IMG/VR virus record: IMGVR_UViG_3300009365_003824
Coordinates: 32,001 to 96,000 of that record
DNA: 64,000 nt
Source of the DNA: a virus
Direction: 5' to 3' (one strand)
In this document: positions 50,675 through 63,033 of the stretch, one piece after another
How positions within the stretch are numbered: position 1 is the stretch's first letter
Layout of the letters: the number at the start of each line of letters is the position of its first letter
The notes under the pieces: generated by a model
The model's input: the letters and a program-made list of their open reading frames with translations, nothing else
Database searches by the model: none
What the model was told of the DNA's origin: nothing
Program-made: the position numbers and the translations under genes

Positions 50675-51121
50675 TTACCCTCTTTCAGTGTTGTGTGGTG
50701 AATAAACCATTCTTCCACAACGAGAACACCTTTCAGAGCAAATCTCGTAACCATCTCTATCCCACGCATTGCCGCACCTACAAGAGTAGTGAGTGTTTTT
50801 GTTCACATTACGCAAATCTATAAAATCATTGTCTTCTGTAATGCGAATGACATTTTTAGGATCATCCCAGAAACCTTTTCCTTTAACATCTGGGATAGGA
50901 GGCGGTCCACTCTCTACTCCAAATTTAATGCAATTATACCATATTCTTTCGTGAAGATAGTAAATCACTATTTTGGCAAAGAAGTCTATTCCACAAATTA
51001 AACCTCCAACCCCAAGACTGCCAGTTAATGCCCAACCTGCTATTCCTGTAATAGTGCTGCCTATGATGCGGTAACTTATTGCTTTAGCTAGATGCCTCTT
51101 CCGGCTTATCTTTTTCTTCAT
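50675..51121 (-). CDS. DUF2061-like membrane protein with C-terminal zinc ribbon
   Basis: RHLAKAISYRIIGS..TG..KIVIYYLHERIW; CRCG..CSRCG. Confidence 0.8.
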   Translation of the reverse strand: MKKKISRKRHLAKAISYRIIGSTITGIAGWALTGSLGVGGLICGIDFFAKIVIYYLHERIWYNCIKFGVESGPPPIPDVKGKGFWDDPKNVIRITEDNDFIDLRNVNKNTHYSCRCGNAWDRDGYEICSERCSRCGRMVYSPHNTERG

Positions 51122-52055
51122 CTTTTTTAACCTGTATTAAGCCATAATACTTAGTGCCCATGCGTAATAATTTTTTCCCATAACGAGTTATCAAACCCTT
51201 TTTGGGATGAAAGGTGTCAGGATCTAGAATAACAGGAGTAAAAGTTAGCGGAACATAAGGAGAATATTGGTATCCCGCCTCGTAATACCAGAGGTTATCT
51301 TCATCATCTTCTTTTTCTCTGCCCCTTAATCCTATAAGCACAGTATCTTCGGGAAATTCCACATCAACATACAGTGGACAACCAATGTGGGATACAAAGA
51401 AAATTTCATCATCAGTTTCGGGAAATCTACCACTGTAATATTCTGATAGCATTTTTCCTATCTTGGGAGAAGTTAAAATCCAATAATCGCTACTTAACAG
51501 TGTTTTTCTGTGGATGACATCTTTTATTTCCTTGATTCTAAAATACCAACCCTCTCCATCTAACCCAGGATCAACAAGAGCTTTAGTTCCAACATTGTTT
51601 CGTAAATCTGTTGTGATTTCACGGGTTATTTCATTTGATATTTTGGCGGCTAGGTTTTCATCATCCCATTCTGTTTCTGTTTCTAGTCTTTTGGTCCTGG
51701 CAGCTATTTCTTCGCTATCTAAAACTAATTTAATTTCATCACCATCTTCTTTGAATGCAAGAAAATAAACAAGTCCTGCTGGGCCTAGAAGAGTTTGAAT
51801 AGAAACGAAATGCCTAGCCATGAGGTTAGAATAAATATCAAATACCAGTTGAAGGTCAATCTTACTATGTCCAGATGAGGTTTCGTTCATCAATCGTTGG
51901 TTTTCTAATATGATCGCCAACTGTTTTGCATATTCAGAATCTACTTTCTCAAAAGGAAAATGATCCTTCCACTTCTCAAGACAAGAGGCAGCTTCTTCAT
52001 CGTGCCTTTTTTTGGAAATCAAAGGGTCGAAAGGGTTTAGTTTCTTTTTGGCCAT
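51084..52055 (-). CDS. second gp23-family capsid protein (shortened paralogue)
   Basis: shares LENQRL.NE, LLGP.GLVY.L, SEE.AA.T..L, TDLRNN.GT, HRKTL, PYVPLT.TPV.LDP..F.P.KG..TRYGKKLLR with the MCP. Confidence 0.85.
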   Translation of the reverse strand: MAKKKLNPFDPLISKKRHDEEAASCLEKWKDHFPFEKVDSEYAKQLAIILENQRLMNETSSGHSKIDLQLVFDIYSNLMARHFVSIQTLLGPAGLVYFLAFKEDGDEIKLVLDSEEIAARTKRLETETEWDDENLAAKISNEITREITTDLRNNVGTKALVDPGLDGEGWYFRIKEIKDVIHRKTLLSSDYWILTSPKIGKMLSEYYSGRFPETDDEIFFVSHIGCPLYVDVEFPEDTVLIGLRGREKEDDEDNLWYYEAGYQYSPYVPLTFTPVILDPDTFHPKKGLITRYGKKLLRMGTKYYGLIQVKKDEEKDKPEEASS

Positions 52056-52245: not shown

Positions 52246-53016
52246 ATGCCACACCCGCAATACAACAGATGGCAAACCCCGATAACATTCTCCTCTTATA
52301 AAGAGAGAAAGTTGATCAGAAGAATTGACAAAAAATTGGAGAAGATCGCAAGGTTAGACTATTGCGCAGGCGAGGGTGAAGTGCTTAATCCATTTGACAA
52401 ACATAGGTTTGCTACTCAGCCCGTATATCATACGAAAGCCCCAAAAATTAGGGCTAGAGGGCAAATTGTAGTTGCATATCGTGAAATCACTGGGCAATAT
52501 TCTATCCCATGTGATCGTGGTTATTGGACACTTTGTAACAAGCAACCTAATGTGGATGGTGCCGAAATCGTACAATTGGTGAAATGTGGGTTGTTGCAAA
52601 AAAAGCAGTTTTATGGAATCGACTATGATCTGAATGATGAAGGCATCATAGAATTCAACCAACAACAACATCCTGAAGCCAATTGGTTCAAAGGCGAGTG
52701 GTTAGAAGTCATTGAAGAAAACTACGAGTTGTTCAATCCTGGTCTAATCTATTTCGATTACACTCGCACAGTTGTTACTCCTGCTTGCCACTTGTATCTA
52801 GCTCGCACGATGAATATGTGCCCCCCCAAGACAGTCGTGGCAGCTAATCTTATGTTGTCGGATGGGCACTCTCGCCGCCGATTCGACCCAGATTTATTGG
52901 TCGAAAATCTGGGAATTCATTTAAGATCCCCCAGTAATTGGGATGTGTATGACAAGTATTATTCGTATAAATCTAGTCATACAGAAATGGCTACTTACAT
53001 CTTCGTGAGAAAATAA
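52246..53016 (+). CDS. SAM-methyltransferase-fold protein (tentative)
   Basis: FYGID....IIE.N....P..NWF.GE....IYFDY Rossmann-like strand order; no NPPY/DPPY/PC motif. Confidence 0.45.
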   Translation: MPHPQYNRWQTPITFSSYKERKLIRRIDKKLEKIARLDYCAGEGEVLNPFDKHRFATQPVYHTKAPKIRARGQIVVAYREITGQYSIPCDRGYWTLCNKQPNVDGAEIVQLVKCGLLQKKQFYGIDYDLNDEGIIEFNQQQHPEANWFKGEWLEVIEENYELFNPGLIYFDYTRTVVTPACHLYLARTMNMCPPKTVVAANLMLSDGHSRRRFDPDLLVENLGIHLRSPSNWDVYDKYYSYKSSHTEMATYIFVRK

Positions 53017-54891
53017 ATGCATTTACATCCAGCTAATTTTGACTACTACGATCCAAATTGGAAGCCCATTACGGCTAATATTGCGGTCTTAAAAGACACC
53101 GACCCCAAGGAGTTGGGATATGGTAATCGTGACTACCAAATTAGATGCTACGAAGCGTTTCAAGGAAAAAGAAGAACGATATTTATTTCTCCGACAGGCA
53201 GTGGTAAAAGTTTAGTGCAGATTTTTAATGCTGCTAGAGAGATTATTGAATCGGACTATGAACAAAAACAAGTGTTTATTGTCCCTCAATTGAATATTGG
53301 TGATGGTTTCACGGATTACAAACACAAAAAATTGCGGATCAATGGTGAAATTTATGGTTGGGAGGTTACTACAAATTGTTGTTTTGACAATGAGCAGTCT
53401 GTTAAAAGAATCAGAGGTTTCCTCCTGAAGGATCATCCATGTAAATCATATCGAGCAAACAAGGTACTAGGAGGTTGCACCGCTGTAGTGAGTTATTCGG
53501 CATTGTTGGCAGCTTTTAATAGTATGACTCCTAGAGAAAAAATGCGAGCTATTCAGAATACTTCATTTCGTCCCGATGAGGTTCATCATATCTCTGGCGT
53601 GGATGAAGGTGGTGTTGCACCAAACCGCTTAGGAGGATTTTGTAAATTCGTTTTGGACAATGACGGTTGCTTACACTTAACTACGGCGACATTCTTTCGT
53701 GGTGATCGGGGTGTAATTCTTGATGGTCATTATCTGGATGATTTTGAGGTTTTCCGTGTCCCATTTCTTGAACACTGGGCGACGTTAAGATTAAAAGAAC
53801 TTCATCAGGACTACCTTTGTTATAAAAATAGCAATGATCTTTTGAGACAAATTCTAACTGCTGTAGCGGCTGAACCAGATAAGCCACCAATCATCATCGT
53901 TCCAGCAGATGGACAAAAGTTCTTTAAACGCACAAACAAATGGAAGTGGGTTGAAAGACTCGTGGATGGTTTGACTGAGATTTATGGAGATAGAGTTCTT
54001 GATCTTGTTACGCCTGAACGTCAACAACGAGACAAAAAACGATTAACTGCTGATGTTCAAGATTTTTGTGCTGTTGTCACTTGTGCCATTGGAAGAGAAG
54101 GAACTGATTGGCCAGCATGTTCTCGTGTTCATAACACGGTATTAGATGCTAATACTCTGCAACCAATTCAGAAACTCGGAAGAGCTTTGCGTCAACACGA
54201 AGAAAAAACCGATATTAAAATGTTTAATTATATTGAGCATTTTAAGAAGTGGGACGATAGCCCTGATACTGTTCGTGAAAAGCTATCAGATCGTTTCAAT
54301 GCTGTTGTAATGGCCTCTATGTTGGATGATATGTTTTATCCCATCCTCATGCCAGCAATACCTCAAGATAAAAACCGCGTTTGCAATGTGACGCTTGAAG
54401 ATGTGTATGGAAGCAAACGAAATGAATTAGTTGAAGATATGATGCGACGATTACTGGCAATTCCCGCATCAAATAGAAACGCTGAAGCCATCAATGAACT
54501 TGTTGATGAGATCATTGAAGAATATGAAGACGACATGTTGGAGGATGTTTCACATGACACCCTCAGAGAACGATTGCGAAAAGAAATTCTCCGTCGCCAA
54601 AACCCTAGTAGTCCTAATCTTCGTATGGATGGGATGATTGTTGATTTTGTTCGTGAGCATGGTTGGGATAAGGTTATACGAAAATATATCGCCAAAAAAT
54701 CCCCCTTTGTAGGCGTTGCAGCAACTAAAGACCTTGAAAAATTGCAAAAGTTTTTAAACAAAGGCGATTGGCTAGAGAATGTTGAACAAATTAAAAAGAT
54801 AGGACTTGAAAACATACAAAAAGGAAGTCGGCTTTATCATTTCCTTTTAAAACAACGCCGAGATTTCAGAAAGGCAACGCACAGTGCTTAA
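53017..54891 (+). CDS. SF2 DExH helicase, YeeB/ResIII-like, with a truncated C-terminal HA-like domain
   Basis: RDYQ, SPTGSGKS, DEVHH, TATFFRGD, GREGTDWP, QKLGRALR. Confidence 0.88.
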   Translation: MHLHPANFDYYDPNWKPITANIAVLKDTDPKELGYGNRDYQIRCYEAFQGKRRTIFISPTGSGKSLVQIFNAAREIIESDYEQKQVFIVPQLNIGDGFTDYKHKKLRINGEIYGWEVTTNCCFDNEQSVKRIRGFLLKDHPCKSYRANKVLGGCTAVVSYSALLAAFNSMTPREKMRAIQNTSFRPDEVHHISGVDEGGVAPNRLGGFCKFVLDNDGCLHLTTATFFRGDRGVILDGHYLDDFEVFRVPFLEHWATLRLKELHQDYLCYKNSNDLLRQILTAVAAEPDKPPIIIVPADGQKFFKRTNKWKWVERLVDGLTEIYGDRVLDLVTPERQQRDKKRLTADVQDFCAVVTCAIGREGTDWPACSRVHNTVLDANTLQPIQKLGRALRQHEEKTDIKMFNYIEHFKKWDDSPDTVREKLSDRFNAVVMASMLDDMFYPILMPAIPQDKNRVCNVTLEDVYGSKRNELVEDMMRRLLAIPASNRNAEAINELVDEIIEEYEDDMLEDVSHDTLRERLRKEILRRQNPSSPNLRMDGMIVDFVREHGWDKVIRKYIAKKSPFVGVAATKDLEKLQKFLNKGDWLENVEQIKKIGLENIQKGSRLYHFLLKQRRDFRKATHSA

Positions 54892-55843
54892 AAAATGGCA
54901 AATATCGGCACTAGAAAGTATTGAAGGATGGGATGAATTCCTTGCTAATGCTAATAATGCTGCTGAAAAGAAGCAACTATTATTGGAAATGGCTAGGAAT
55001 GGAGAGCCAAGGCCACGATCACAAAAACATTATCTTGCGGGAGCACTAAATTCTTACATCGGTAAGTCAAATAATAGTTACGACCCAGAGTTTGATAAAA
55101 AGATTAGAAAATTAGCACCACACTGGTTCGTTAGTACTGCTGCTAAAAATAAAAAACTGCTGCTAGAAATGGCGAGGAATGGAAAACCACGACCAGTTCA
55201 AACAACACAATTGGGATCAGCATTAAACTCTTATACTAAGGGTTGTTGTGATCTTGTTTTCGACAAAAAAATTAGAGAACTGGCTCCACATTGGTTTGAT
55301 ACTACTGCTAGGAACAAAGAAGCCCTTCTCGAAATGGCAAGAAGTGGAGAACCACGACCAAATTGTAAAAAGAATCCATTGGGAAAAAGACTTGTGCGTT
55401 ATATCGGTAAGTCAAGTGGTTCTTATGATCCTGCTTTTGACAAAGAAATTAGAAAACTAGCCCCACATTGGTTTGTTGACACTGCTGCTGAAAAAAAACA
55501 ACTATTGTTGGAAATGGCCAGGAATGGAGAACCACGACCAACAAAAAACCCGCTAAAATCAGCATTAAATAATTATCTTTGCGAGGCAAGCGGCTGTTGC
55601 GACCCTGTTTTCGACAAAAAAATTAGAAAACTAGCCCCACATTGGTTTGTTGATACTGCTGCTGAAAATAAGAAACTATTGTTAGAGATGGCACGCAATG
55701 GTGAACCCAGGCCAAATAGCAAAAATGGATCTCTGGGGAATTGTCTTGTGCGATATACGAATAATACTAGCTCCTATGATAAAGAGTTTGACAAAAAAAT
55801 TAGAAAACTAGCTCCGCACTGGTTCAGGAAGAATCATGCTTAA
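54884..55843 (+). CDS. repeat protein A: 20-aa leader plus 5 HA-like repeats
   Basis: GTG start overlapping the helicase stop by 8 nt; repeats LLEMARNGEPRP..LG..L..Y..DP.FDK.IR.LAPHWF. Confidence 0.85.
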   Translation: MLKKWQISALESIEGWDEFLANANNAAEKKQLLLEMARNGEPRPRSQKHYLAGALNSYIGKSNNSYDPEFDKKIRKLAPHWFVSTAAKNKKLLLEMARNGKPRPVQTTQLGSALNSYTKGCCDLVFDKKIRELAPHWFDTTARNKEALLEMARSGEPRPNCKKNPLGKRLVRYIGKSSGSYDPAFDKEIRKLAPHWFVDTAAEKKQLLLEMARNGEPRPTKNPLKSALNNYLCEASGCCDPVFDKKIRKLAPHWFVDTAAENKKLLLEMARNGEPRPNSKNGSLGNCLVRYTNNTSSYDKEFDKKIRKLAPHWFRKNHA

Positions 55844-56867
55844 AAAATGGCAAATATCGGCACTAGAAAGCATTGAAGGATGGGATGAATTCCTCAATGA
55901 GGAATCGTCTTCTGCCAAAAATAAAAAACTGTTGTTGGAAATGGCAAGAAATGGAGAGCCAAGACCAAAAAAAAATAAACACCCATTGGGATCTGTACTG
56001 ACTGCTTATACAGGAAAAATGAGAGATTGTTACGATCCTGTATTTGACAAACAAATTAGAGAATTAGCTCCACATTGGTTCATTGCTGTTGTAGAAGAAA
56101 ATAAAAGACTATTATTGGAAATGGCAAAGAAGGGAAAACCAAGACCAAAACAAGGCAAACATCCGTTAGGAGGCAAATTGAGTGATTACACCAATGGAAT
56201 CCATCGTGGTTCTAAATTTGACAAGCAAATTAGAAGATTGGCACCACATTGGTTTGTCGAACAAACTATCGAACAGAAAAAACAACAACTCCTTGAAATG
56301 GCAAGAAATGGCGAGCCAAGACCATCTCAAAGGAAATATCCTTCACTGGGGTCTGCATTAAGTCGTTATACTGACAAAAACAAATCTTATGATCCTGACT
56401 TTGATAGAGAAATTAGAAAATTAGCACCGCATTGGTTTGTTGATGCTGCTGAAAATAAAAAATTGCTTCTTGAAATGGCTAGGAACGGAGAGCCAAGACC
56501 ATCTAAGGAAATCCCATTAGGAAGAATAATAAATTATTACTTTAGGTGCGATCCTGATTTTTACAAGAAGATCAAAGAATTAGCTCCACATTGGTTCGAT
56601 AGGAAAAGTCATAAGCAATCTAAAATTGCCAAGCAGAAAAAACAACAACTTCTTGAAATGGCTCGCAATGGAGAGCCACGACCAAAAAGAAAAAAACACA
56701 AATTAGGAATATCATTGGGTTGTTATACCAGTAAAAACAATAGTTCTTATGATCCTGCCTTCGACAAGCAGATTAGAAAACTAGCTCCGCACTGGTTCAG
56801 GAAGAATCATGCTTAAAAAATGGCAAATATCGGCACTAGAAAGTATTGAAGGATGGGATGAATTCCT
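55799..56867 (+). repeat. 96-bp direct repeat (1 mismatch) spanning the A/B and B/C gene junctions; the last ~58 bp also occur at 54885
   Basis: 55799-55894 versus 56772-56867, read directly. Confidence 0.9.
55836..56816 (+). CDS. repeat protein B: same leader plus 5 HA-like repeats
   Basis: SD AGGA plus ATG, 8-nt overlap. Confidence 0.85.
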   Translation: MLKKWQISALESIEGWDEFLNEESSSAKNKKLLLEMARNGEPRPKKNKHPLGSVLTAYTGKMRDCYDPVFDKQIRELAPHWFIAVVEENKRLLLEMAKKGKPRPKQGKHPLGGKLSDYTNGIHRGSKFDKQIRRLAPHWFVEQTIEQKKQQLLEMARNGEPRPSQRKYPSLGSALSRYTDKNKSYDPDFDREIRKLAPHWFVDAAENKKLLLEMARNGEPRPSKEIPLGRIINYYFRCDPDFYKKIKELAPHWFDRKSHKQSKIAKQKKQQLLEMARNGEPRPKRKKHKLGISLGCYTSKNNSSYDPAFDKQIRKLAPHWFRKNHA

Positions 56868-57249
56868 TAATGAAGAATCTTCTTCTGACAAAAAGAAAAA
56901 ACTGCTTCTTGAAATGGCACGGAATGGAGAACCACGACCAAAGAGTAAAAAACATCCGGGTGTAGCATTGAGTAATTACATCAGTAAGTCAAGTAATGCT
57001 TACGATTCAGACTTCGATAAGAAAATTAGAAAACTGGCACCACACTGGTTTGTTGATGCTGTTGCTGAAAAGAAAAAACTGCTTCTTGAAATGGCAAAGA
57101 ATGGTGAACCACGACCGAAGTGCGTCTTCGGCCAGAAAAGCAATCCATTGGGAAGGGCGTTAAGGGATTACATCAGTAAGTCAAGTGGCTCTTACGATCC
57201 TACTTTCGACAAGCAGATTAGAAAACTAGCACCGCACTGGTTCAATTAG
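56809..57249 (+). CDS. repeat protein C: same leader plus 2 HA-like repeats
   Basis: SD AGGA plus ATG, 8-nt overlap. Confidence 0.85.
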   Translation: MLKKWQISALESIEGWDEFLNEESSSDKKKKLLLEMARNGEPRPKSKKHPGVALSNYISKSSNAYDSDFDKKIRKLAPHWFVDAVAEKKKLLLEMAKNGEPRPKCVFGQKSNPLGRALRDYISKSSGSYDPTFDKQIRKLAPHWFN

Positions 57250-57837
57250 TGCCTGAGAATCCTTAGAGAGCTTTTTTAAAATTTTCCACTTGGTATCGGT
57301 TGCACACTCAATAAGCTGAATAGGCTTCCATATCATGTGATGTGGGCTTTTTAAATAACGCTGCTCAGCCTCTCCCTCTGTCATGTAGTCCAGACATGCC
57401 TCTTGAGCTAATAGCCTCTTAGTGTGCTTCTTAGCGTTTTTAATTAAATCTATGGCTTGAGGCATAGTCAAATGCTGAATTACATGCACACAACAAGCTA
57501 AATCAAACTGTCCTATGTCCCAATTATCCTCGACCAAATGGAATTTCACATTATCTGAGGCGTAATTTTTAGAGGCGTAATCCACCCTAGCAGCAGTGAT
57601 GTCAATTCCAACGTAGGATTTAAAAGGCAAGATGGCTGAATATCTGCCATATCCACACCCTATTTCCAGAATCCTTTTCCCTGCTGTCTCTTTTTTAAGC
57701 CATTCCACAGCGTCAGAATTGACCCCATCAAGGTGAGCATCATTATTAAAGAGGCGAACCACCCCATTCAGAGCTTTTTCAGTTCTTGCATTGAAGTCTT
57801 CAACTATGTCGTAGTCTCGACCTGTCCAAATACTCAT
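57226..57837 (-). CDS. class I SAM methyltransferase
   Basis: ILEIGCGYGR, YVGID, FDL...HVIQHL. Confidence 0.9.
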   Translation of the reverse strand: MSIWTGRDYDIVEDFNARTEKALNGVVRLFNNDAHLDGVNSDAVEWLKKETAGKRILEIGCGYGRYSAILPFKSYVGIDITAARVDYASKNYASDNVKFHLVEDNWDIGQFDLACCVHVIQHLTMPQAIDLIKNAKKHTKRLLAQEACLDYMTEGEAEQRYLKSPHHMIWKPIQLIECATDTKWKILKKLSKDSQALIEPVRC

Positions 57838-58310
57838 TGTTTAACCCACTTTTTATTGCCATCCCTTAAAAAAGGGAAATAGTCCGATTTGATGCCCAAA
57901 AATTCATACAATAATTGCAAGTATGGTTCTCTTAAAAAAAGGAATGTTTCGTAAGACCATATGAAACAATTTCTGGTTTCCATGAGTTTGTGCATCATTT
58001 GTCTTGCTGTTTCGTTGTGCTTTTGAATATCTTCAATAAGCTCAGAATGCTTTTTTTCTTTTGAAAGTGAAACGCAATTCATATCCCTAGTGCATAAAAT
58101 GAATTTGCAAGGCTCTTTAAATTCATCTAATGGGGGGTAGTGCTTCTCTTTTCCACCATACGGCAAAGAACGATGACAAACCTTGTCGCCCCTTTTATTT
58201 GATTTACTCCAGAAACGACCATTGTAATCTTTGACCCCTATCGCTGTGGCGATTGTCTTGGCAATTAAAGTACTGCCACTACTCTCTGGACCTAAAACTA
58301 CGAAATTCAT
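57834..58310 (-). CDS. sulfotransferase-like protein
   Basis: VLGPESSGS..I, CTRD, WSYE, LYEFLG, DGN.K. Confidence 0.65.
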   Translation of the reverse strand: MNFVVLGPESSGSTLIAKTIATAIGVKDYNGRFWSKSNKRGDKVCHRSLPYGGKEKHYPPLDEFKEPCKFILCTRDMNCVSLSKEKKHSELIEDIQKHNETARQMMHKLMETRNCFIWSYETFLFLREPYLQLLYEFLGIKSDYFPFLRDGNKKWVKQ

Positions 58311-58630: not shown

Positions 58631-58849
58631 TTATTTCTTCAACAACCTCAATAGTCGCTTTAACAACCTGTTGTTTTCTTTCAATAATTTGTTGTGTTCT
58701 TCTAGTAGCTCTAATAATTCTGATTTAAGATTTGGCATTTTAAATTCAGTTTCGGTTGGCTTTGCTGATTCCATTTTTGTAGATTCTAAGAGTTCTAAAG
58801 GTGATTTTAATTGCTTCAATGGCGATTGTGTTATATTTGTTATATTCAT
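58631..58849 (-). CDS. small coiled-coil protein
   Basis: ATGA-coupled to the endonuclease; leucine heptads. Confidence 0.5.
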   Translation of the reverse strand: MNITNITQSPLKQLKSPLELLESTKMESAKPTETEFKMPNLKSELLELLEEHNKLLKENNRLLKRLLRLLKK

Positions 58850-60309
58850 GCAGTATATATCAAACCACACAAAACTTCTGACTCCGTAATTTCTAATTTA
58901 TCACGACATGCCTGCCGTATTGCTTTATACTGATTTACTTCTTTTGGTGGTTCTGAGAAAGATGGAGTTTGTCCACTGAAAAAACTGTCAAGAATTTCAG
59001 GGATGCGTTCCTGATCCCAAAAAGGAATATAAAGGATAGGAATATTACGTTGTTTTAGATATTTAAGTTTGCGGTGGTCACGTTTGATATATGAATAAAG
59101 GTTTTTGTACTTGGTGTTGTGCTTGCCACCAAAATAAACAGGAATGTAATGCGGTTCTCCTTGATACTCAATCAATCCTTTTTCGGTAGCAAAATCAAAT
59201 CGTAAATTTCCAATTGAAGATTTTTTAAATCTGAATTGTGGTTTGAATATGATTTGGTTTTGTTCAAGGTATTCATAAATTATTTTTTCATTTCGAGATG
59301 TTTTACATTTATGACACCTCTTACCTTGTTTAAAATTACTAAAACGAATCTCTGATTTATTGCCGCACTTACAAATATAAGGCATAGATGTATTATTGCC
59401 AATATACTCCGTAGCAAGTAGTTTACACCCCCCATCAGCAAAATATTGTTTGACATATTCAAAGGAATGTTTCAATGATTTTGCTATTTTATTATTACCA
59501 CAATTCCTGCACCTATGACCTACCTTAAAACTACCAAAACTAATTTTTGATTCATTACCACATTCACAAATATAAGGCATTGGAGCATCTTTGCCAGTAT
59601 ATTCTGTGGCAAGTAATTTACATCCATGATCCTCAAAATATTGTTTGACACACTCAAAGGAATGTTTATTTAATTGGCTTAGCCTCCTATTGCTGCATTT
59701 TTTACACCTTTGACCTTGTTGCAAATTATAGAATCTAATTTTTGATTCATTACCACATTCACAAATATAAGGCATGGAAGTACCACTGTTTTTATATTCC
59801 GTAGCAAGAAGTGTACATCCACGATCTTCAAAGTATTTTTTTACATATTCAAGGGAGTGTTTTTGTGATTTGACCATCTTTTTAGTGCCGCACTCTCTGC
59901 ACCTATGACCTGCCTTAAAATTACTAAAACGAATTTTTGATTCATTACCACACTCACAAATATAAGGCATTGGTGTACTCGTGTCGATATATTCGTGTTT
60001 CTCAACAAGAAGTGTACACCCTTGGTTTATGAAATGTTGTCTCATTTCTTCAAAAGATGTTCTGCGTGCAAGACCACTCTTTTCAATTCCACAGAGTTTA
60101 CACCTTTTCCCATGTTGAAAATTGTTGAAATTGATTTCTGATTTATTGCCACATTCACAAATGTAAGGCATTGAAACATTAGCATTAATATATTCCACAG
60201 CAAGAAGTTCACATCCATGATTCTCAAAATATTTTTTTACATATTCAAAAGTTAATTTTTTCAAAATCCACACTTGCCTCACTATATAAATTATGGTAAA
60301 ATACGCCAA
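58846..60309 (-). CDS. homing-type endonuclease: five ~65-aa zinc-ribbon repeats plus a Vsr/DUF559-like nuclease
   Basis: 5x Y...GC.LL..EY.....MPYICECGN.S.I.F..F..G.RC..C; S..EK.I..QFRF..LRFDF..LIEYQG..H; start uncertain. Confidence 0.8.
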   Translation of the reverse strand: MAYFTIIYIVRQVWILKKLTFEYVKKYFENHGCELLAVEYINANVSMPYICECGNKSEINFNNFQHGKRCKLCGIEKSGLARRTSFEEMRQHFINQGCTLLVEKHEYIDTSTPMPYICECGNESKIRFSNFKAGHRCRECGTKKMVKSQKHSLEYVKKYFEDRGCTLLATEYKNSGTSMPYICECGNESKIRFYNLQQGQRCKKCSNRRLSQLNKHSFECVKQYFEDHGCKLLATEYTGKDAPMPYICECGNESKISFGSFKVGHRCRNCGNNKIAKSLKHSFEYVKQYFADGGCKLLATEYIGNNTSMPYICKCGNKSEIRFSNFKQGKRCHKCKTSRNEKIIYEYLEQNQIIFKPQFRFKKSSIGNLRFDFATEKGLIEYQGEPHYIPVYFGGKHNTKYKNLYSYIKRDHRKLKYLKQRNIPILYIPFWDQERIPEILDSFFSGQTPSFSEPPKEVNQYKAIRQACRDKLEITESEVLCGLIYTA

Positions 60310-60323
60310 AAGGAGAAATTACC

Positions 60324-61484
60324 ATGTATTTACAAGAACTGAACGGTATTCTACCCGCTCAAAAAGTAAAAATCAAGTATGACTGCAATGGTGGATTTGA
60401 ACGTTGTGGTCAAGAGTGGGAGCTTAAATTAAAGGATGCTCAAAAGAATTTTAAGAAGAATGAAGGAAAACACATTTGTCGAAAGTGTACGCTACGACAA
60501 AAAAATCCGATGTTCGACAAAAAGAACGTTGAAAAGATCAAAAAGACTAATTTAGAAAGGTATGGAACTGAACACCCGCTAAATTCTGAAGAACACATCC
60601 AAGAACGCCGGGAACAACTCAAAGATCCAGAATTCAAGAAGAAATGGTTGGCAAAACACCGGCAAACATCACTTGAGAAGTATGGTGTCGAACACCATAT
60701 GAAGAGTGAAGTCTCAAAAGAAAATCAAAGAAAATCAATGAGAGAGAAGTATGGTGTAGATTACCCATATCAATCCGAAGAGATTATGGCCAAAATGAAA
60801 AAACGTAATTTGGAAAAGTATGGAGTAGAAAATGCAGCATCTCGACCAGAAGTTCAAATTAAAATGGCAAAGACGAGATTAGAAAAATATGGAGTAGAGC
60901 ATTATAATCAATTACCAGAAATGAGAGAATATTTAAGAGAACACTGTACAGAATGGCTGGCTGAAAGTTATAAAAATCCGTGGGCCAAAGGAATTACGAG
61001 GCCAGAGGAATGGAATCAGAAACAGAGGGAAACGGTTGCTAAACTTATTACCGAAGGCAATTGGCCAGGAGGATTTGTGTCTAATTGTCGAGGAAGATAT
61101 AAAGCAAAAAAATGTAAAAAAGAAAACCCTCGGTTTCTATCTGGTTTAGAATTGCAAATGCACTTTTTTTTAGACAATCATCCAGATGTAGAATGGTATA
61201 ATTATGAGTCTTTTGCTATTCCCTATTTAGATCAAGATGGCAAACAGCATCTATACTTTCCTGACTTTTTAGTTAAATATAAAAATGATCCATTAGAACA
61301 CATTATTGAGACTAAAACATGGAAAGATAAGGATTCAATTACTGTGAAGTTAAAACATGACGCAGCAGTTGATTATGCAAATGAACGGAGCATGACATAT
61401 ACAATTTTATTTGATGAAGATGTGCAAGAATTGGGAATAGATTTAGAAAGTGTTAAAAATTTACCAGTAGTTGAATTATATTAA
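60324..61484 (+). CDS. homing-type endonuclease: EKYGV repeats plus a TnsA-N-like nuclease
   Basis: repeated (L)EKYGV(E/D); S.LE..YESF.IPY...H.Y.PDFLV..IIETK. Confidence 0.8.
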   Translation: MYLQELNGILPAQKVKIKYDCNGGFERCGQEWELKLKDAQKNFKKNEGKHICRKCTLRQKNPMFDKKNVEKIKKTNLERYGTEHPLNSEEHIQERREQLKDPEFKKKWLAKHRQTSLEKYGVEHHMKSEVSKENQRKSMREKYGVDYPYQSEEIMAKMKKRNLEKYGVENAASRPEVQIKMAKTRLEKYGVEHYNQLPEMREYLREHCTEWLAESYKNPWAKGITRPEEWNQKQRETVAKLITEGNWPGGFVSNCRGRYKAKKCKKENPRFLSGLELQMHFFLDNHPDVEWYNYESFAIPYLDQDGKQHLYFPDFLVKYKNDPLEHIIETKTWKDKDSITVKLKHDAAVDYANERSMTYTILFDEDVQELGIDLESVKNLPVVELY

Positions 61485-61557: not shown

Positions 61558-63033
61558 TCAAATCACAAAATTGGCAATCGAGAGGCGTGCGTAGAATTTA
61601 GCACCTTCTCTCAAAAGTTTTTTACCATATCTCGTTAAAATACCTTTTCTTGGGCAAAAATTCTCTGGGTCCAGAACCACTGGGGTCTGTGTCAGGGGGA
61701 CGTATGGTAGGTAAAAATACCCAGCATCCATATAACTGTCGCCCTTGTAACCCATTAAAATCTGCCCTTGCGGGAAGAGCGGATCTTTGTATAATCTCCA
61801 GCGAGAATTTACTGTTCCGACGTATTGAATACCCAAGGAACTTGTGAATGTCTCGGAAGGAGCGGGTGCGAAACCAGCAGTTGCGGTTTCAAAAATGGAG
61901 GCTACTTCAGGAGAAGTTACCAACCAGTTGCAACCACCACGCAGAGTTTTACGGTGAACAACATTTGAAACTTCTACGACCTTGACATACAAGGATTCGT
62001 ATTTTTCTTTAATTGTGTCACCAAGCGCGGTATTGAAATCCCAGGAGGAAATTGTGCCAGCGTTGTTTCTCAGGTCAGTGAGAACTTCACGGTCGATTTC
62101 CAAGTTAATTTCCTGAGCCAAGATAGCAGTTAATTCTGCTTCGGCGTCAAGATTGTGCTGAGATCGCAGGTCTTGCTGAGCTTCGTAGCTCCAAACGGCC
62201 TTCAATTTACGAGTCTTGGCTGCAACTTCTTCGGATTCGATAACCATGTTGATCTCAGGAAGATCAGGGTTACATTCCATGTTGTACTCATAATTTACAA
62301 GCACATAGTTTTCGCCAGGACCAGCCCCGCCACCACCAGTGTCAGACCACTGGACAACAACTTCACCCGTTGTAAGGTCCATTGAGGAACCTGTAGCAAC
62401 TGGGGTATAGTCGGGGGAGCCAATTGTTGTAAATGTAAACGCACCATTTTCACCAACACCAAAAGTAGCGACTGCGGTTGTGCCATCAAAGACGGTACCT
62501 GTCATGCTACCAGCGAGGATTGGGGTGTGTTCAAGCGGAGCATAAACACTAACCATATCCAAGCCATCATCCTGAGAGCTAGTCTCGTTCTGGATGAACT
62601 GGTGGGAGTAGTAAATATCCAAGTTTGCATCACCAGATGCCAACTGTTGGAGGGTGTTTACATCGTCATCTGGATAGCCAGCGTTATTATCAGCACCACG
62701 GGTGGCACCTTTATTGCTGGAGTATCTAAATCTCAGGTAGTAAACCAAACCAGTTGGGCCAAGTAGCGGTTGAACGGAAACAATTTTATTTGCGATCAAC
62801 TGCGGATAAATTCTACGGACCAACGGAATAGAAATTCTTTTGAACTGGGCGATGTCGCCAGTATCAGTAGAGACTTCGTTGAACAATCTCTGGTTTTCCA
62901 GAAGAACAGCAGTGCAAGAGCGGGTATAGTCATCATCTAAATCGCCTTTGACGCTCTTCAGCAAACCTGTTTTGTTCCAGAAGCCTTCGCATTCTTTTGC
63001 TTCGTTAAGAAGCCTTGAATTGCCACTAAACAT
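61558..63033 (-). CDS. major capsid protein, T4 gp23 family
   Basis: IPLVRR.YP.LIA..IVSVQP..GPTGL, AKTRKLKA.WS.EA.QDL...H.LDAEAEL..IL..EI..EIDRE, DAGYFY.PYVPL, P.KG..TRYG. Confidence 0.95.
   Translation of the reverse strand: MFSGNSRLLNEAKECEGFWNKTGLLKSVKGDLDDDYTRSCTAVLLENQRLFNEVSTDTGDIAQFKRISIPLVRRIYPQLIANKIVSVQPLLGPTGLVYYLRFRYSSNKGATRGADNNAGYPDDDVNTLQQLASGDANLDIYYSHQFIQNETSSQDDGLDMVSVYAPLEHTPILAGSMTGTVFDGTTAVATFGVGENGAFTFTTIGSPDYTPVATGSSMDLTTGEVVVQWSDTGGGGAGPGENYVLVNYEYNMECNPDLPEINMVIESEEVAAKTRKLKAVWSYEAQQDLRSQHNLDAEAELTAILAQEINLEIDREVLTDLRNNAGTISSWDFNTALGDTIKEKYESLYVKVVEVSNVVHRKTLRGGCNWLVTSPEVASIFETATAGFAPAPSETFTSSLGIQYVGTVNSRWRLYKDPLFPQGQILMGYKGDSYMDAGYFYLPYVPLTQTPVVLDPENFCPRKGILTRYGKKLLREGAKFYARLSIANFVI

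What the first reader, a model, noticed from the sequence alone, without database searches (positions are those of the whole stretch)
52246..57249. Candidate new system: MTase-fold protein, YeeB-like helicase and three modular HA-repeat 'specificity' proteins
Seen: five co-oriented, abutting or overlapping genes. The SF2 helicase has intact motifs and no visible nuclease domain. It is followed by three genes made only of an identical 20-aa leader plus 5, 5 and 2 copies of a ~55-60-aa repeat. Known: HA (PF03457) three-helix repeats normally sit fused to helicases and are thought to bind nucleic acid; YeeB-type helicases work with an MTase (YeeA) and a nuclease (YeeC) in defence loci. The YeeB resemblance (VPxxxIGxxF, NRLG, FRGD, DWP) is from memory. 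Inference: a phage-encoded ATP-driven DNA-targeting machine whose specificity comes from separate, interchangeable repeat arrays, analogous to HsdS or TALE arrays, used against host DNA, rival phages or for self-modification.
Basis: partly seen in the sequence, partly recalled or inferred. Interest (0 to 1): 0.9.

Follow-up and report, generated by a model that had tools for sequence, protein, structure and literature searches.

The report
Phage helicase with plug-in repeat arrays
A large marine T4-like phage carries a conserved, uncharacterised gene set: a methyltransferase-shaped protein, a nuclease-free helicase that ends partway through a small three-helix domain, and three basic repeat proteins that each begin with the missing helix, so one motor probably takes alternative nucleic-acid-binding tails.

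Summary
In detail: five co-oriented, abutting or overlapping genes, an intact SF2 helicase with no nuclease domain, and three paralogues with an identical 20-aa leader and 5, 5 and 2 copies of a 53-67-aa repeat.

- **Gene 1.** It has a class I SAM-methyltransferase fold but matches no Pfam family. Its real start is probably GTG 52381, which gives 211 aa.
- **The repeat.** Pfam HA does not detect it. It folds confidently as a three-helix unit. When fused to anything, it sits C-terminal to SF2 helicases. In related loci it occupies the position taken by canonical HA or INT_rpt arrays.
- **The junction.** The helicase tail supplies HA helices 1-2 and each leader supplies helix 3. In other phages the tail ends after helix 1 and the leaders carry helices 2-3.
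- **Linkage.** The three parts are linked in dozens of viral and metagenomic loci. In some they are fused into one protein (helicase-arrays, or helicase-arrays-gene 1 domain).
- **Docking.** Leader-to-tail docking got only weak support from complex prediction.
- **Untested or unsupported.** The DNA target, methyltransferase activity and a specificity code are untested. The YeeB and defence-system readings have no support.

This scan has already followed up the same module on other DNA several times, and those notes agree with this report. I found no publication describing it. I class it as a new variant of helicase plus HA-repeat architectures.

The parts
52381..53016 (+). Gene 1: class I SAM-methyltransferase-fold protein of an unnamed viral family. 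The longest ORF starts at 52246; the likely true start is GTG 52381.
   Evidence: AF2 model has pLDDT 78. All top Foldseek PDB hits are SAM methyltransferases at E about 1e-6. VIA-align gives Z 11-13, e.g. 4qdj at Z 13.0, rmsd 3.5 over 180 residues. No Pfam, PHROG, PADLOC or NCBIfam family matches. Homologues are about 211 aa. GTG is preceded by GAGGGTGA.
53017..54891 (+). SF2 helicase/translocase of 624 aa (DExH type) with no nuclease domain.
   Evidence: ResIII 31.5 bits; Helicase_C 17.1 bits, below its cut-off. phrog_16 'DNA helicase' at E 2.7e-16. A family profile hits archaeal XPB/Rad25 best in PDB, E 5e-8. It is the only ResIII gene in the 106-kb record.
54766..54888 (+). Helicase C-terminal tail (residues 584-624, DWLENV...KQRRDFRKATHSA), read as helices 1-2 of an unfinished HA domain.
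   Evidence: Joining tail and leader in a script gives one alignment across the junction to an HA profile built from 16 Pfam-verified HA units: 9.9 bits, profile positions 37-68. The tail alone gives 1.3 bits, the leader alone 5.7, and shuffled leaders 3.6 or less. The same layout occurs in L008, L021 and L028.
54884..55843 (+). Repeat protein 1 (319 aa, GTG start): leader at 54884-54943 followed by 5 PRP units.
   Evidence: Units lie at 54944-55129, 55130-55297, 55298-55474, 55475-55648 and 55649-55825. pI 9.75.
55836..56816 (+). Repeat protein 2 (326 aa): leader at 55836-55895 followed by 5 PRP units.
   Evidence: Units lie at 55896-56081, 56082-56255, 56256-56438, 56439-56597 and 56598-56798. 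pI 9.97. 262 homologues at E<=1e-3.
56809..57249 (+). Repeat protein 3 (146 aa): leader at 56809-56868 followed by 2 PRP units.
   Evidence: Units lie at 56866-57051 and 57052-57243. The two-unit AF2 model has pLDDT 95.7, with three helices per unit. pI 9.66.
55760..55984 (+). Duplicated junction cassette (last unit, stop/start overlap, leader). The second copy lies at 56733-56957.
   Evidence: the repeat finder family D8: 225 nt at 85% identity. Family D7: three copies of the 131-nt leader region at 80-82% identity.

Best explanation
This is a three-component module of large T4-like phages: an SF2 ATPase motor, a methyltransferase-fold partner, and several alternative repeat-array subunits.

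Shown:
- The helicase stops after the first two helices of a helicase-associated (HA) three-helix domain.
- Each of the three array proteins starts with the 20-aa helix that matches HA helix 3.
- The arrays are strongly basic tandem three-helix units.
- The three components are syntenic across many viral contigs and are fused in some.

Inferred:
- The leader completes the unfinished HA domain in trans. One motor can then carry any one of the three arrays (5, 5 or 2 units) as a detachable nucleic-acid-binding tail.
- The motor most likely translocates on double-stranded DNA, because its nearest solved relatives are of the XPB/ResIII type.
- The arrays hold or select the substrate.
- The methyltransferase-fold protein acts on that substrate or on the complex.

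My guess for the biological role is a phage DNA transaction (modification, remodelling or repair) rather than a restriction-like defence.
For: Gene set and repeats.

The HA signal sits in the leader.
- Relatives P0028 and P0069 reach 29.3 and 31.6 bits against Pfam HA (cut-off 28.4). The match is at their N-termini and covers profile positions 25-64 only.

The split point varies, but the two halves stay complementary.
- Where the tail has helices 1-2, the leaders start at HA profile position about 53, at residue 2. This holds for the window (3 leaders), L006 (3), L019 (3), L021, L008, L010 and L028.
- Where the tail covers profile positions 5-21, the leaders start at position 23-24. This holds for L036 (4 leaders) and L038 (3). 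L029 and L030 are intermediate.
- Helicases with non-HA tails (L016, L018) go with a different leader type.

The leader is shared by different cargo.
- PRP units follow it in the window.
- Canonical HA x5-6 follows it in L038 and L036, E 1e-46 to 1e-56.
- INT_rpt follows it in L018, L028 and L034.
- A fourth repeat type follows it in L021.

The leader-bearing genes lie upstream of the helicase in L006 and L019, with intergenic gaps in L006. They are therefore independent proteins.

Fusions.
- L014 and L032 are helicase plus PRP units.
- L011 and L013 are helicase plus PRP units plus a C-terminal domain homologous to gene 1 (hhalign P 7.5e-5 over 165 columns).
- 8 of 9 long PRP-bearing representatives tested have an N-terminal ResIII/DEAD helicase.

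Complex prediction (helicase 480-624 with repeat protein 2, residues 1-85).
- ipSAE 0.57 (three runs 0.54-0.59); best of 3 controls 0.00. The tool's verdict is 'weak support'.
- The mark was reached by 58 of 80 solved complexes and 2 of 110 mismatched pairs.
- At 0.60 or under it was reached by only 7 of those 80, and by both mismatches that passed.
- The runs agree in at least 94% of contacts, and the partner's pLDDT is at least 77.

Other points.
- The arrays have pI 9.7-10.
- An HA domain is cited as binding DNA in Mills et al. 2013, as quoted in PMC12191111.
Against: - No binding, ATPase or methyltransferase data exist.
- In the window itself the HA signal is weak: 9.9 bits against my own HA profile, and no Pfam HA hit at E<=10 anywhere in the record.
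- The complex score lies in the range the tool calls weak.
- PRP units are not demonstrably HA. Pfam hits 0 of 99 units. hhalign gives P 0.019 local and 0.062 global. The best structural match to 2kta is Z 4.1, tied with unrelated helical proteins.
- Gene 1 lacks the Gly-rich SAM loop (YWTLCNKQPN), so it may be inactive or may not use SAM.
- DNA versus RNA as substrate is not resolved. Many of gene 1's fold neighbours are RNA methyltransferases.
- The loci compared are related phages, so the co-variation counts are not independent events.
Confidence: 0.6

Rival explanations
1. The module works on RNA. The motor would be an RNA helicase, the basic three-helix arrays would bind RNA as PUF or PPR arrays do, and gene 1 would be an RNA methyltransferase acting on phage or host transcripts, tRNA or rRNA.
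For: Many top fold neighbours of gene 1 are rRNA or tRNA methyltransferases, including RlmO 4dmg, RlmI 3c0k, the RsmD-like 3p9n, KsgA 3fut, ErmC' 1qam and TrmN 3tma. RIG-I and Dicer-related RNA helicases appear among the weak PDB sequence hits.
Against: The class I fold does not discriminate between substrates. The best helicase hits are XPB/Rad25 DNA translocases. The only HA domain studied is reported to bind DNA. PHROG and ResIII relatives are annotated as DNA helicases.
Confidence: 0.17
2. The module would be a restriction-modification-like or anti-defence targeting system: a YeeB-type helicase plus a methyltransferase, with the arrays as sequence-specificity subunits (HsdS- or TALE-like) aimed at host or rival-phage DNA or at self-modification.
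For: The layout has separate, variable, multi-copy array genes beside a motor and a methyltransferase-fold protein. Variable positions cluster on the post-PRP loop and the exposed face of helix 2. There are weak PADLOC hits to PbeA and an NCBIfam hit to the helicase part of a Dnd restriction enzyme.
Against: - There is no nuclease anywhere in the module.
- No defence-system model reaches a convincing score.
- Gene 1 lacks a DPPY/NPPY-type motif.
- Units are mostly closest to other units of the same genome (9 of 12). This points to local duplication rather than a conserved positional code.
- The module sits in the structural-gene region of the phage, between a gp23-like gene and the major head gene.
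- The gene 1 family is nearly absent from 185,579 species genomes, with one hit on a 2.2-kb MAG contig. It is therefore not a cellular defence island gene.
Confidence: 0.12
3. The helicase and the first array are made as one polypeptide by programmed +1 frameshifting at the GCT-TAA/GTG-CTT-AAA overlap, so the HA domain is completed in cis. The other leaders would be relics of duplication.
For: The HA domain is cut exactly at the gene boundary, with an 8-nt overlap and an A-rich run, CTTAAAAAATGG. Fused helicase-array proteins exist in relatives.
Against: - All three array genes keep an intact, identical leader.
- In L006 and L019 the leader-bearing genes lie upstream of the helicase. Two junctions in L006 have intergenic gaps of 5 and 132 nt.
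- In L036 and L038 the genes are separated by 1-2 nt in another frame.
- Fused forms (L014) lack the HA junction altogether.
- No recognised +1 slippery site is present: the P-site codon would be GCU, re-pairing to CUU.
Confidence: 0.06
4. The shared leader is a sorting signal, for example a capsid-targeting peptide for packaging or injection as in T4 internal proteins. On this view the repeat proteins are cargo unrelated to the helicase.
For: Other notes on this genome list many proteins with short conserved N-terminal peptides. The module lies among head genes.
Against: The leader matches HA helix 3, and its length co-varies with what the helicase tail lacks. It has no (L/I)-x-E cleavage motif in register. 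Array units are fused to helicases in many proteins.
Confidence: 0.05

Closest known systems
SF2 helicases with C-terminal tandem HA domains (Pfam PF03457, 'Helicase associated domain'). The solved example is PDB 2KTA, a domain of Bacteroides vulgatus A6KY75; I identify it from memory with the BVU_0683(627-691) structure of Mills et al. 2013, cited in PMC12191111.
   Same: A ResIII/DExH motor of about 620 aa is followed by tandem three-helix units of about 60 aa. The junction domain is a true HA relative. Orthologous phage loci carry canonical HA arrays in the same place.
   Different: - The arrays here are separate genes.
- The junction HA domain is split between two polypeptides.
- Pfam HA does not detect the units.
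- A methyltransferase-fold gene is an obligate neighbour.
- The function of HA helicases is itself unknown.
INT_rpt (Pfam PF14882, 'Integrase repeat unit') arrays fused to or following phage helicases.
   Same: They take the same position behind the same leader in L018, L028 and L034. A viral Atlas cluster of proteins of about 1059 aa combines ResIII with INT_rpt.
   Different: It is a different repeat family and is absent from this window.
T4 UvsW / UvsW.1. From my own knowledge: an SF2 helicase whose small helical C-terminal part is a separate gene in T4 and is fused in other phages.
   Same: A ResIII-type phage helicase encoded near the head genes, with a naturally split helical C-terminal piece.
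   Different: A profile search hits UvsW (2oca) only over motif I-Ia, E 1.2e-4, which is weaker than the XPB hit. tblastn of the phage collection found only 2 records (a Tunturiibacter and a Ralstonia phage), no T4-like phage among them. UvsW has no repeat arrays and no methyltransferase partner.
Type I and type III restriction-modification systems (HsdR/HsdM/HsdS; Res/Mod).
   Same: A motor, a methyltransferase-fold protein and a separate variable subunit.
   Different: There is no nuclease and no DNA-methyltransferase motif. PADLOC gives no convincing hit. The variable subunit is a repeat array docked on the motor, not a TRD protein bound to the methyltransferase.

Membership tests
HA domain (Pfam PF03457), applied to the 12 repeat units | Match to the Pfam HA model at or above the gathering score of 28.4 bits | tested here: not met
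   No HA hit on the three proteins at E<=0.1. No hit in the whole record at E<=10. 0 of 99 units hit at E<=1.
HA domain (Pfam PF03457), applied to the 12 repeat units | Three-helix unit of about 60-65 aa | tested here: met
   The AF2 two-unit model has pLDDT 95.7, with helices 6-19, 32-39 and 48-62 in each unit.
HA domain (Pfam PF03457), applied to the 12 repeat units | Occurs in tandem copies C-terminal to SF2 helicases | tested here: met
   Fused forms occur in L014, L032, L011 and L013. 26 of the best 150 representatives are 700 aa or longer, with units in the C-terminal part. 8 of 9 tested have an N-terminal ResIII/DEAD domain.
HA domain (Pfam PF03457), applied to the 12 repeat units | Profile-profile or structural similarity to bona fide HA domains | tested here: inconclusive
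   hhalign against 16 Pfam-verified HA units gives P 0.019 (local) and 0.062 (global), in the expected register. Against HA-type leaders the probability is 0.2%. 2kta ranks 4th of 48,161 chains but only at Z 4.1, rmsd 5.4 over 70 residues, tied with unrelated helical proteins. Foldseek finds nothing at E<=0.001.
HA domain (Pfam PF03457), applied to the junction (helicase tail plus leader) | Sequence match to HA spanning the two polypeptides | tested here: inconclusive
   In the window: 9.9 bits across the junction, against 3.6 or less for shuffled leaders. Homologous longer leaders pass the Pfam cut-off (P0028 29.3 bits, P0069 31.6 bits). In L036 and L038 the tail covers profile positions 5-21 and the leader covers 23-69, at 45-61 bits.
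Class I SAM-dependent methyltransferases (gene 1) | Rossmann-like seven-stranded methyltransferase fold | tested here: met
   All top 50 Foldseek and VIA-align hits are methyltransferases, at Z 11.3-13.0. The Atlas structure search gives TM 0.54-0.63 to methyltransferase clusters.
Class I SAM-dependent methyltransferases (gene 1) | Glycine-rich motif I (E/DxGxGxG) after strand 1 | tested here: not met
   The window has YWTLCNKQPN with no Gly-rich loop (alignment). The fused homologues have FWTLGG. The acidic residue after strand 2 (G124-x-D126) and D171-x-T173 after strand 4 are invariant.
Class I SAM-dependent methyltransferases (gene 1) | Match to any curated methyltransferase sequence family; SAM binding or activity | tested here: not met
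   No Pfam, NCBIfam or PHROG family matches. SAM binding and activity cannot be tested with these tools.
SF2 helicases (ResIII / DExH group) | Walker A, DExH, motif III and motif VI; match to ResIII and Helicase_C | tested here: met
   The motifs are visible in the translation and invariant in the family. ResIII scores 31.5 bits against a 22.5 cut-off. Helicase_C scores 17.1 bits, below 23.5.
YeeB-type helicase / YeeABC-like locus | Sequence kinship to B. subtilis YeeB, with neighbouring YeeA methyltransferase and YeeC nuclease | not testable with these tools
   No YeeB reference or model was available. PADLOC and NCBIfam gave no such hit. No nuclease gene lies in the module.
Type I/III restriction-modification or other known defence systems | Nuclease domain, DNA-methyltransferase motif IV, and a match to defence-system models | tested here: not met
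   There is no nuclease. The best PADLOC hit is PbeA at E 4e-6, covering helicase motifs only. Gene 1 has D-Y-T in place of (D/N)PP(Y/F).

The most novel reading that the evidence does not exclude
One ATP-driven motor exchanges DNA-reading tails by split-domain complementation. The tails would be modular three-helix arrays whose variable helix-2 face encodes sequence or structure preference. Together with the methyltransferase-fold subunit, this would form a naturally re-targetable nucleic-acid-modifying machine of huge phages.
Probability: 0.12. Interest if true: 0.85.

Novelty: new variant of a known kind. Interest (0 to 1): 0.6.

Why it matters
HA and INT_rpt repeats are widespread but have no assigned function. 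Here they appear, with a third unmodelled repeat family (1,282 representative clusters), as interchangeable subunits. They are clipped to one phage helicase through a domain split between two polypeptides, always beside an unclassified methyltransferase-fold protein. If the docking holds, it is a simple natural way to give one motor several substrate-binding tails. It would also give a handle for finding out what HA-type helicases do. The module recurs in many uncultured large phages, so it probably serves a general step of their biology.

Tried and rejected
- Megablast of the 5-kb region against phage records found nothing. tblastn with the helicase found only two phage records.
- A single-sequence scan of viral contigs with the helicase found nothing.
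- Tunturi_5 gp99 shows no significant BLASTP similarity to the PRP arrays. By eye it resembles the L021 repeat type.
- A PRP profile against PDB sequences gave nothing below E 0.25. P0069 against PDB gave nothing relevant.
- Foldseek of the repeat model found no match at E<=0.001.
- hhalign of PRP units against HA-type leaders gave a probability of 0.2%.
- I could not obtain canonical HA sequences by naming a genus. I used Pfam-verified HA arrays from L036 and L038 instead.
- Mills et al. 2013 (PMC3637686) is not held. A paper search for '2KTA' found nothing. That 2KTA is the HA structure rests on the entry title, on my own knowledge and on earlier notes of this scan.
- Promoter and terminator scans gave nothing above the shuffled expectation. 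The T4 late-promoter motif TATAAATA is not upstream of the module.
- Sequencing runs: the stretch is held by two marine metagenome runs of one study, and no RNA holder is listed. I did not lay reads.
- Literature searches for PF03457, PF14882 and helicase-associated-domain phage repeats found no description of this module.
- I considered UvsW orthology because of the position near the head genes. The sequence signal is weak.

Full report
**Setting**

The window is part of a 105.9-kb IMG/VR virus record. CheckV estimates it as 21% complete, and the same proteins occur on a contig of 219,975 bases. It is a large T4-like phage. The major head protein lies at 61558-63033 (phrog_138, E 8.5e-79) and a head-closure gene lies next to it. 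A second, shorter gp23-like gene at 51084-52055 lies just upstream of the finding. The DNA is held by two marine metagenome runs of one study.

**The observation**

One search confirms five + strand ORFs that abut (53016/53017) or overlap by 8 nt. The helicase/array-1 overlap reads GTGCTTAA; the other two read ATGCTTAA (family D3).

- The helicase (624 aa) has intact Walker A, DEVH, TAT and QxxGRxxR motifs. It matches ResIII above the cut-off and has no nuclease domain.
- The three downstream proteins begin with the identical 20 residues MLKKWQISALESIEGWDEFL. They contain 5, 5 and 2 units of 53-67 aa.
- The unit consensus is KKxLLEMAxxGxxRP-x6-LGxxLxxYT-x6-YDxxFDxxIRxLxPxWF. I call it the PRP unit.
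- The last unit, the junction and the leader form a duplicated cassette of 225 nt at 85% identity.
- Gene 1 most likely starts at GTG 52381, giving 211 aa. Its homologues are about 211 aa and start MLNPFDKH. A GAGGGTGA box precedes the GTG. The extra 45 residues fold with low confidence.

**Gene 1**

- No Pfam, PHROG, NCBIfam or PADLOC family matches.
- An AF2 model from eight homologues has pLDDT 78.
- All top Foldseek and VIA-align hits are SAM-dependent methyltransferases. Foldseek gives E about 1e-6 and VIA-align gives Z 11-13. The ESM Atlas model agrees.
- The fold assignment is therefore sound.
- The Gly-rich SAM loop is replaced by YWTLCNKQPN. G124-x-D126 after strand 2 and D171-x-T173 after strand 4 are invariant.
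- Activity and substrate remain open.
- The family has about 40 clusters, all unnamed. It appears in one of 185,579 species genomes, on a 2.2-kb MAG contig. It is essentially viral.

**The repeat**

- Pfam HA does not see it.
- A two-unit model built from 46 unit pairs is very confident (pLDDT 95.7) and shows three helices per unit.
- Foldseek finds nothing.
- An exhaustive VIA-align search gives only Z 4.1 at best. The HA NMR structure 2kta is among the four tied top hits of 48,161 chains.
- hhalign against 16 Pfam-verified HA units aligns in the expected register (helix 1, the Pro, LG-helix 2, the terminal Trp). The P-values are 0.019 local and 0.062 global.
- The unit is widespread: 1,282 representative clusters at E<=1e-3.
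- When fused, it sits C-terminal to SF2 helicases. This held for 8 of 9 long representatives.
- I conclude that it is a helicase-associated three-helix repeat and probably a divergent HA relative. I put this at about 70%. It is not a demonstrable member of PF03457.
- The proteins are basic, with pI 9.7-10.
- Conserved positions are the hydrophobic core. Variable positions are the loop after PRP, the x positions of LGxxLxxY and the following loop.
- Nine of the twelve units are most similar to another unit of the same genome. The arrays therefore turn over by local duplication.

**The junction**

A first-stage note on this genome (e1-6043515) suggested that an HA domain is split across the helicase/array boundary. 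I tested this.

- Homologues of the array proteins with longer leaders hit Pfam HA above the cut-off. The match is at their N-terminus and covers profile positions 25-64 only.
- I built an HA profile from the canonical arrays of L036 and L038. The window's helicase tail joined to a leader gives a single alignment across the junction. It scores 9.9 bits over positions 37-68. The tail alone scores 1.3, the leader alone 5.7, and shuffled leaders 3.6 or less.
- Across loci the split point moves, but the halves stay complementary:

| Helicase tail | Leader | Loci |
|---|---|---|
| HA helices 1-2 | starts at profile position about 53, at residue 2 | window, L006, L008, L010, L019, L021, L028 |
| profile positions 5-21 only (helix 1) | starts at position 23-24 | L036, L038 (L029 and L030 intermediate) |
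| no HA-like sequence | a different leader type | L016, L018 |

- In L006 and L019 the leader-bearing genes lie upstream of the helicase. Completion in cis by recoding cannot be general.
- Complex prediction of helicase 480-624 with residues 1-85 of array protein 2 gave 'weak support'. ipSAE was 0.57 (runs 0.54-0.59), and the best of three controls was 0.00.
- For calibration, the mark was reached by 58 of 80 solved complexes and 2 of 110 mismatches. At 0.60 or under it was reached by only 7 of the 80 and by both passing mismatches. The runs agree in at least 94% of contacts, and the partner's pLDDT is at least 77.

**Linkage**

- Gene 1 lies next to the helicase in every locus long enough to show both. 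This covers more than 20 distinct viral or metagenomic contigs, some up to 572 kb. It is usually immediately upstream.
- Array genes follow in most loci, but their content varies. I found PRP units, canonical HA x5-6 (E 1e-46 to 1e-56), INT_rpt, and a fourth type in L021 that resembles Tunturi_5 gp99/gp98.
- Fusions tie the parts together. L014 and L032 are helicase plus PRP units. L011 and L013 are helicase plus PRP units plus a C-terminal domain homologous to gene 1 (hhalign P 7.5e-5 over 165 columns, all motifs in register).

**What it is not**

- The helicase is a generic ResIII/XPB-like SF2 enzyme. The best PDB profile hit is archaeal XPB at E 5e-8. UvsW matches only over motif I.
- No defence model fits.
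- I could not test the YeeB resemblance.
- There is no nuclease in the module.

**Reading**

The most economical explanation is one motor with detachable, alternative nucleic-acid-binding tails that dock by completing a split HA domain. An obligate methyltransferase-fold partner works with it.

- Shown: the anatomy, the conservation, the fusions and the complementary split.
- Inferred: trans docking (weak computational support), nucleic-acid binding (charge and the HA precedent), DNA as the substrate, and any enzymatic role of gene 1.

**Novelty**

Helicases with HA repeats in cis are a known, uncharacterised architecture. Three things are not described in any paper I could find. These are the split junction, the multi-gene swappable arrays including an unmodelled repeat family, and the constant methyltransferase-fold neighbour. 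This scan has already followed up the same module on other genomes several times, with concordant conclusions. Those notes are not independent evidence.

Noticed in passing
window 58846-60309 (-): A 487-aa protein with five tandem copies of a unit of about 60 aa carrying a zinc ribbon (MPYICECGNESKIRF...C..C), followed by a homing/HNH endonuclease domain (phrog_559, E 8.6e-73). This is another repeat-array DNA reader, here fused to a nuclease.
   Followed up: partly
window 60324-61484 (+): One ORF matches both homing endonuclease families (residues 110-273) and a head-closure protein (residues 257-351). It may be an endonuclease inserted into or fused with a structural gene, just upstream of the major head gene.
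   Followed up: no
window 51084-52055 (-) and 61558-63033 (-): There are two gp23-family genes: the full major head protein (491 aa) and a 323-aa paralogue matching only the C-terminal half of Gp23. The short one recurs next to the helicase module in L006-L009, L011 and L017.
   Followed up: partly
L018 10616-12172 and 12169-13239; L028 4276-6628; L034 4488-5555: Proteins with the same type of leader as the local PRP proteins but carrying INT_rpt (PF14882) repeats instead. This shows that the leader is a portable module.
   Followed up: partly
L005 (Tunturiibacter phage Tunturi_5) 7854-9709: gp99 and gp98 are annotated 'DNA helicase' but have no helicase domain in Pfam. They follow the homologous helicase gp100, and their repeats look like those of L021. 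They are probably array subunits that were mis-annotated.
   Followed up: partly
window 57226-57837 (-): A conventional class I methyltransferase (Methyltransf_12/25/11) converges on the module and overlaps the end of the third array gene by 24 nt. A P-loop-like gene follows it at 57834-58310.
   Followed up: no
L011 12349-13194: A gene with a CxxxCxxC radical-SAM-like motif directly follows the fused helicase-array-methyltransferase-fold protein. I did not see it in other loci.
   Followed up: no
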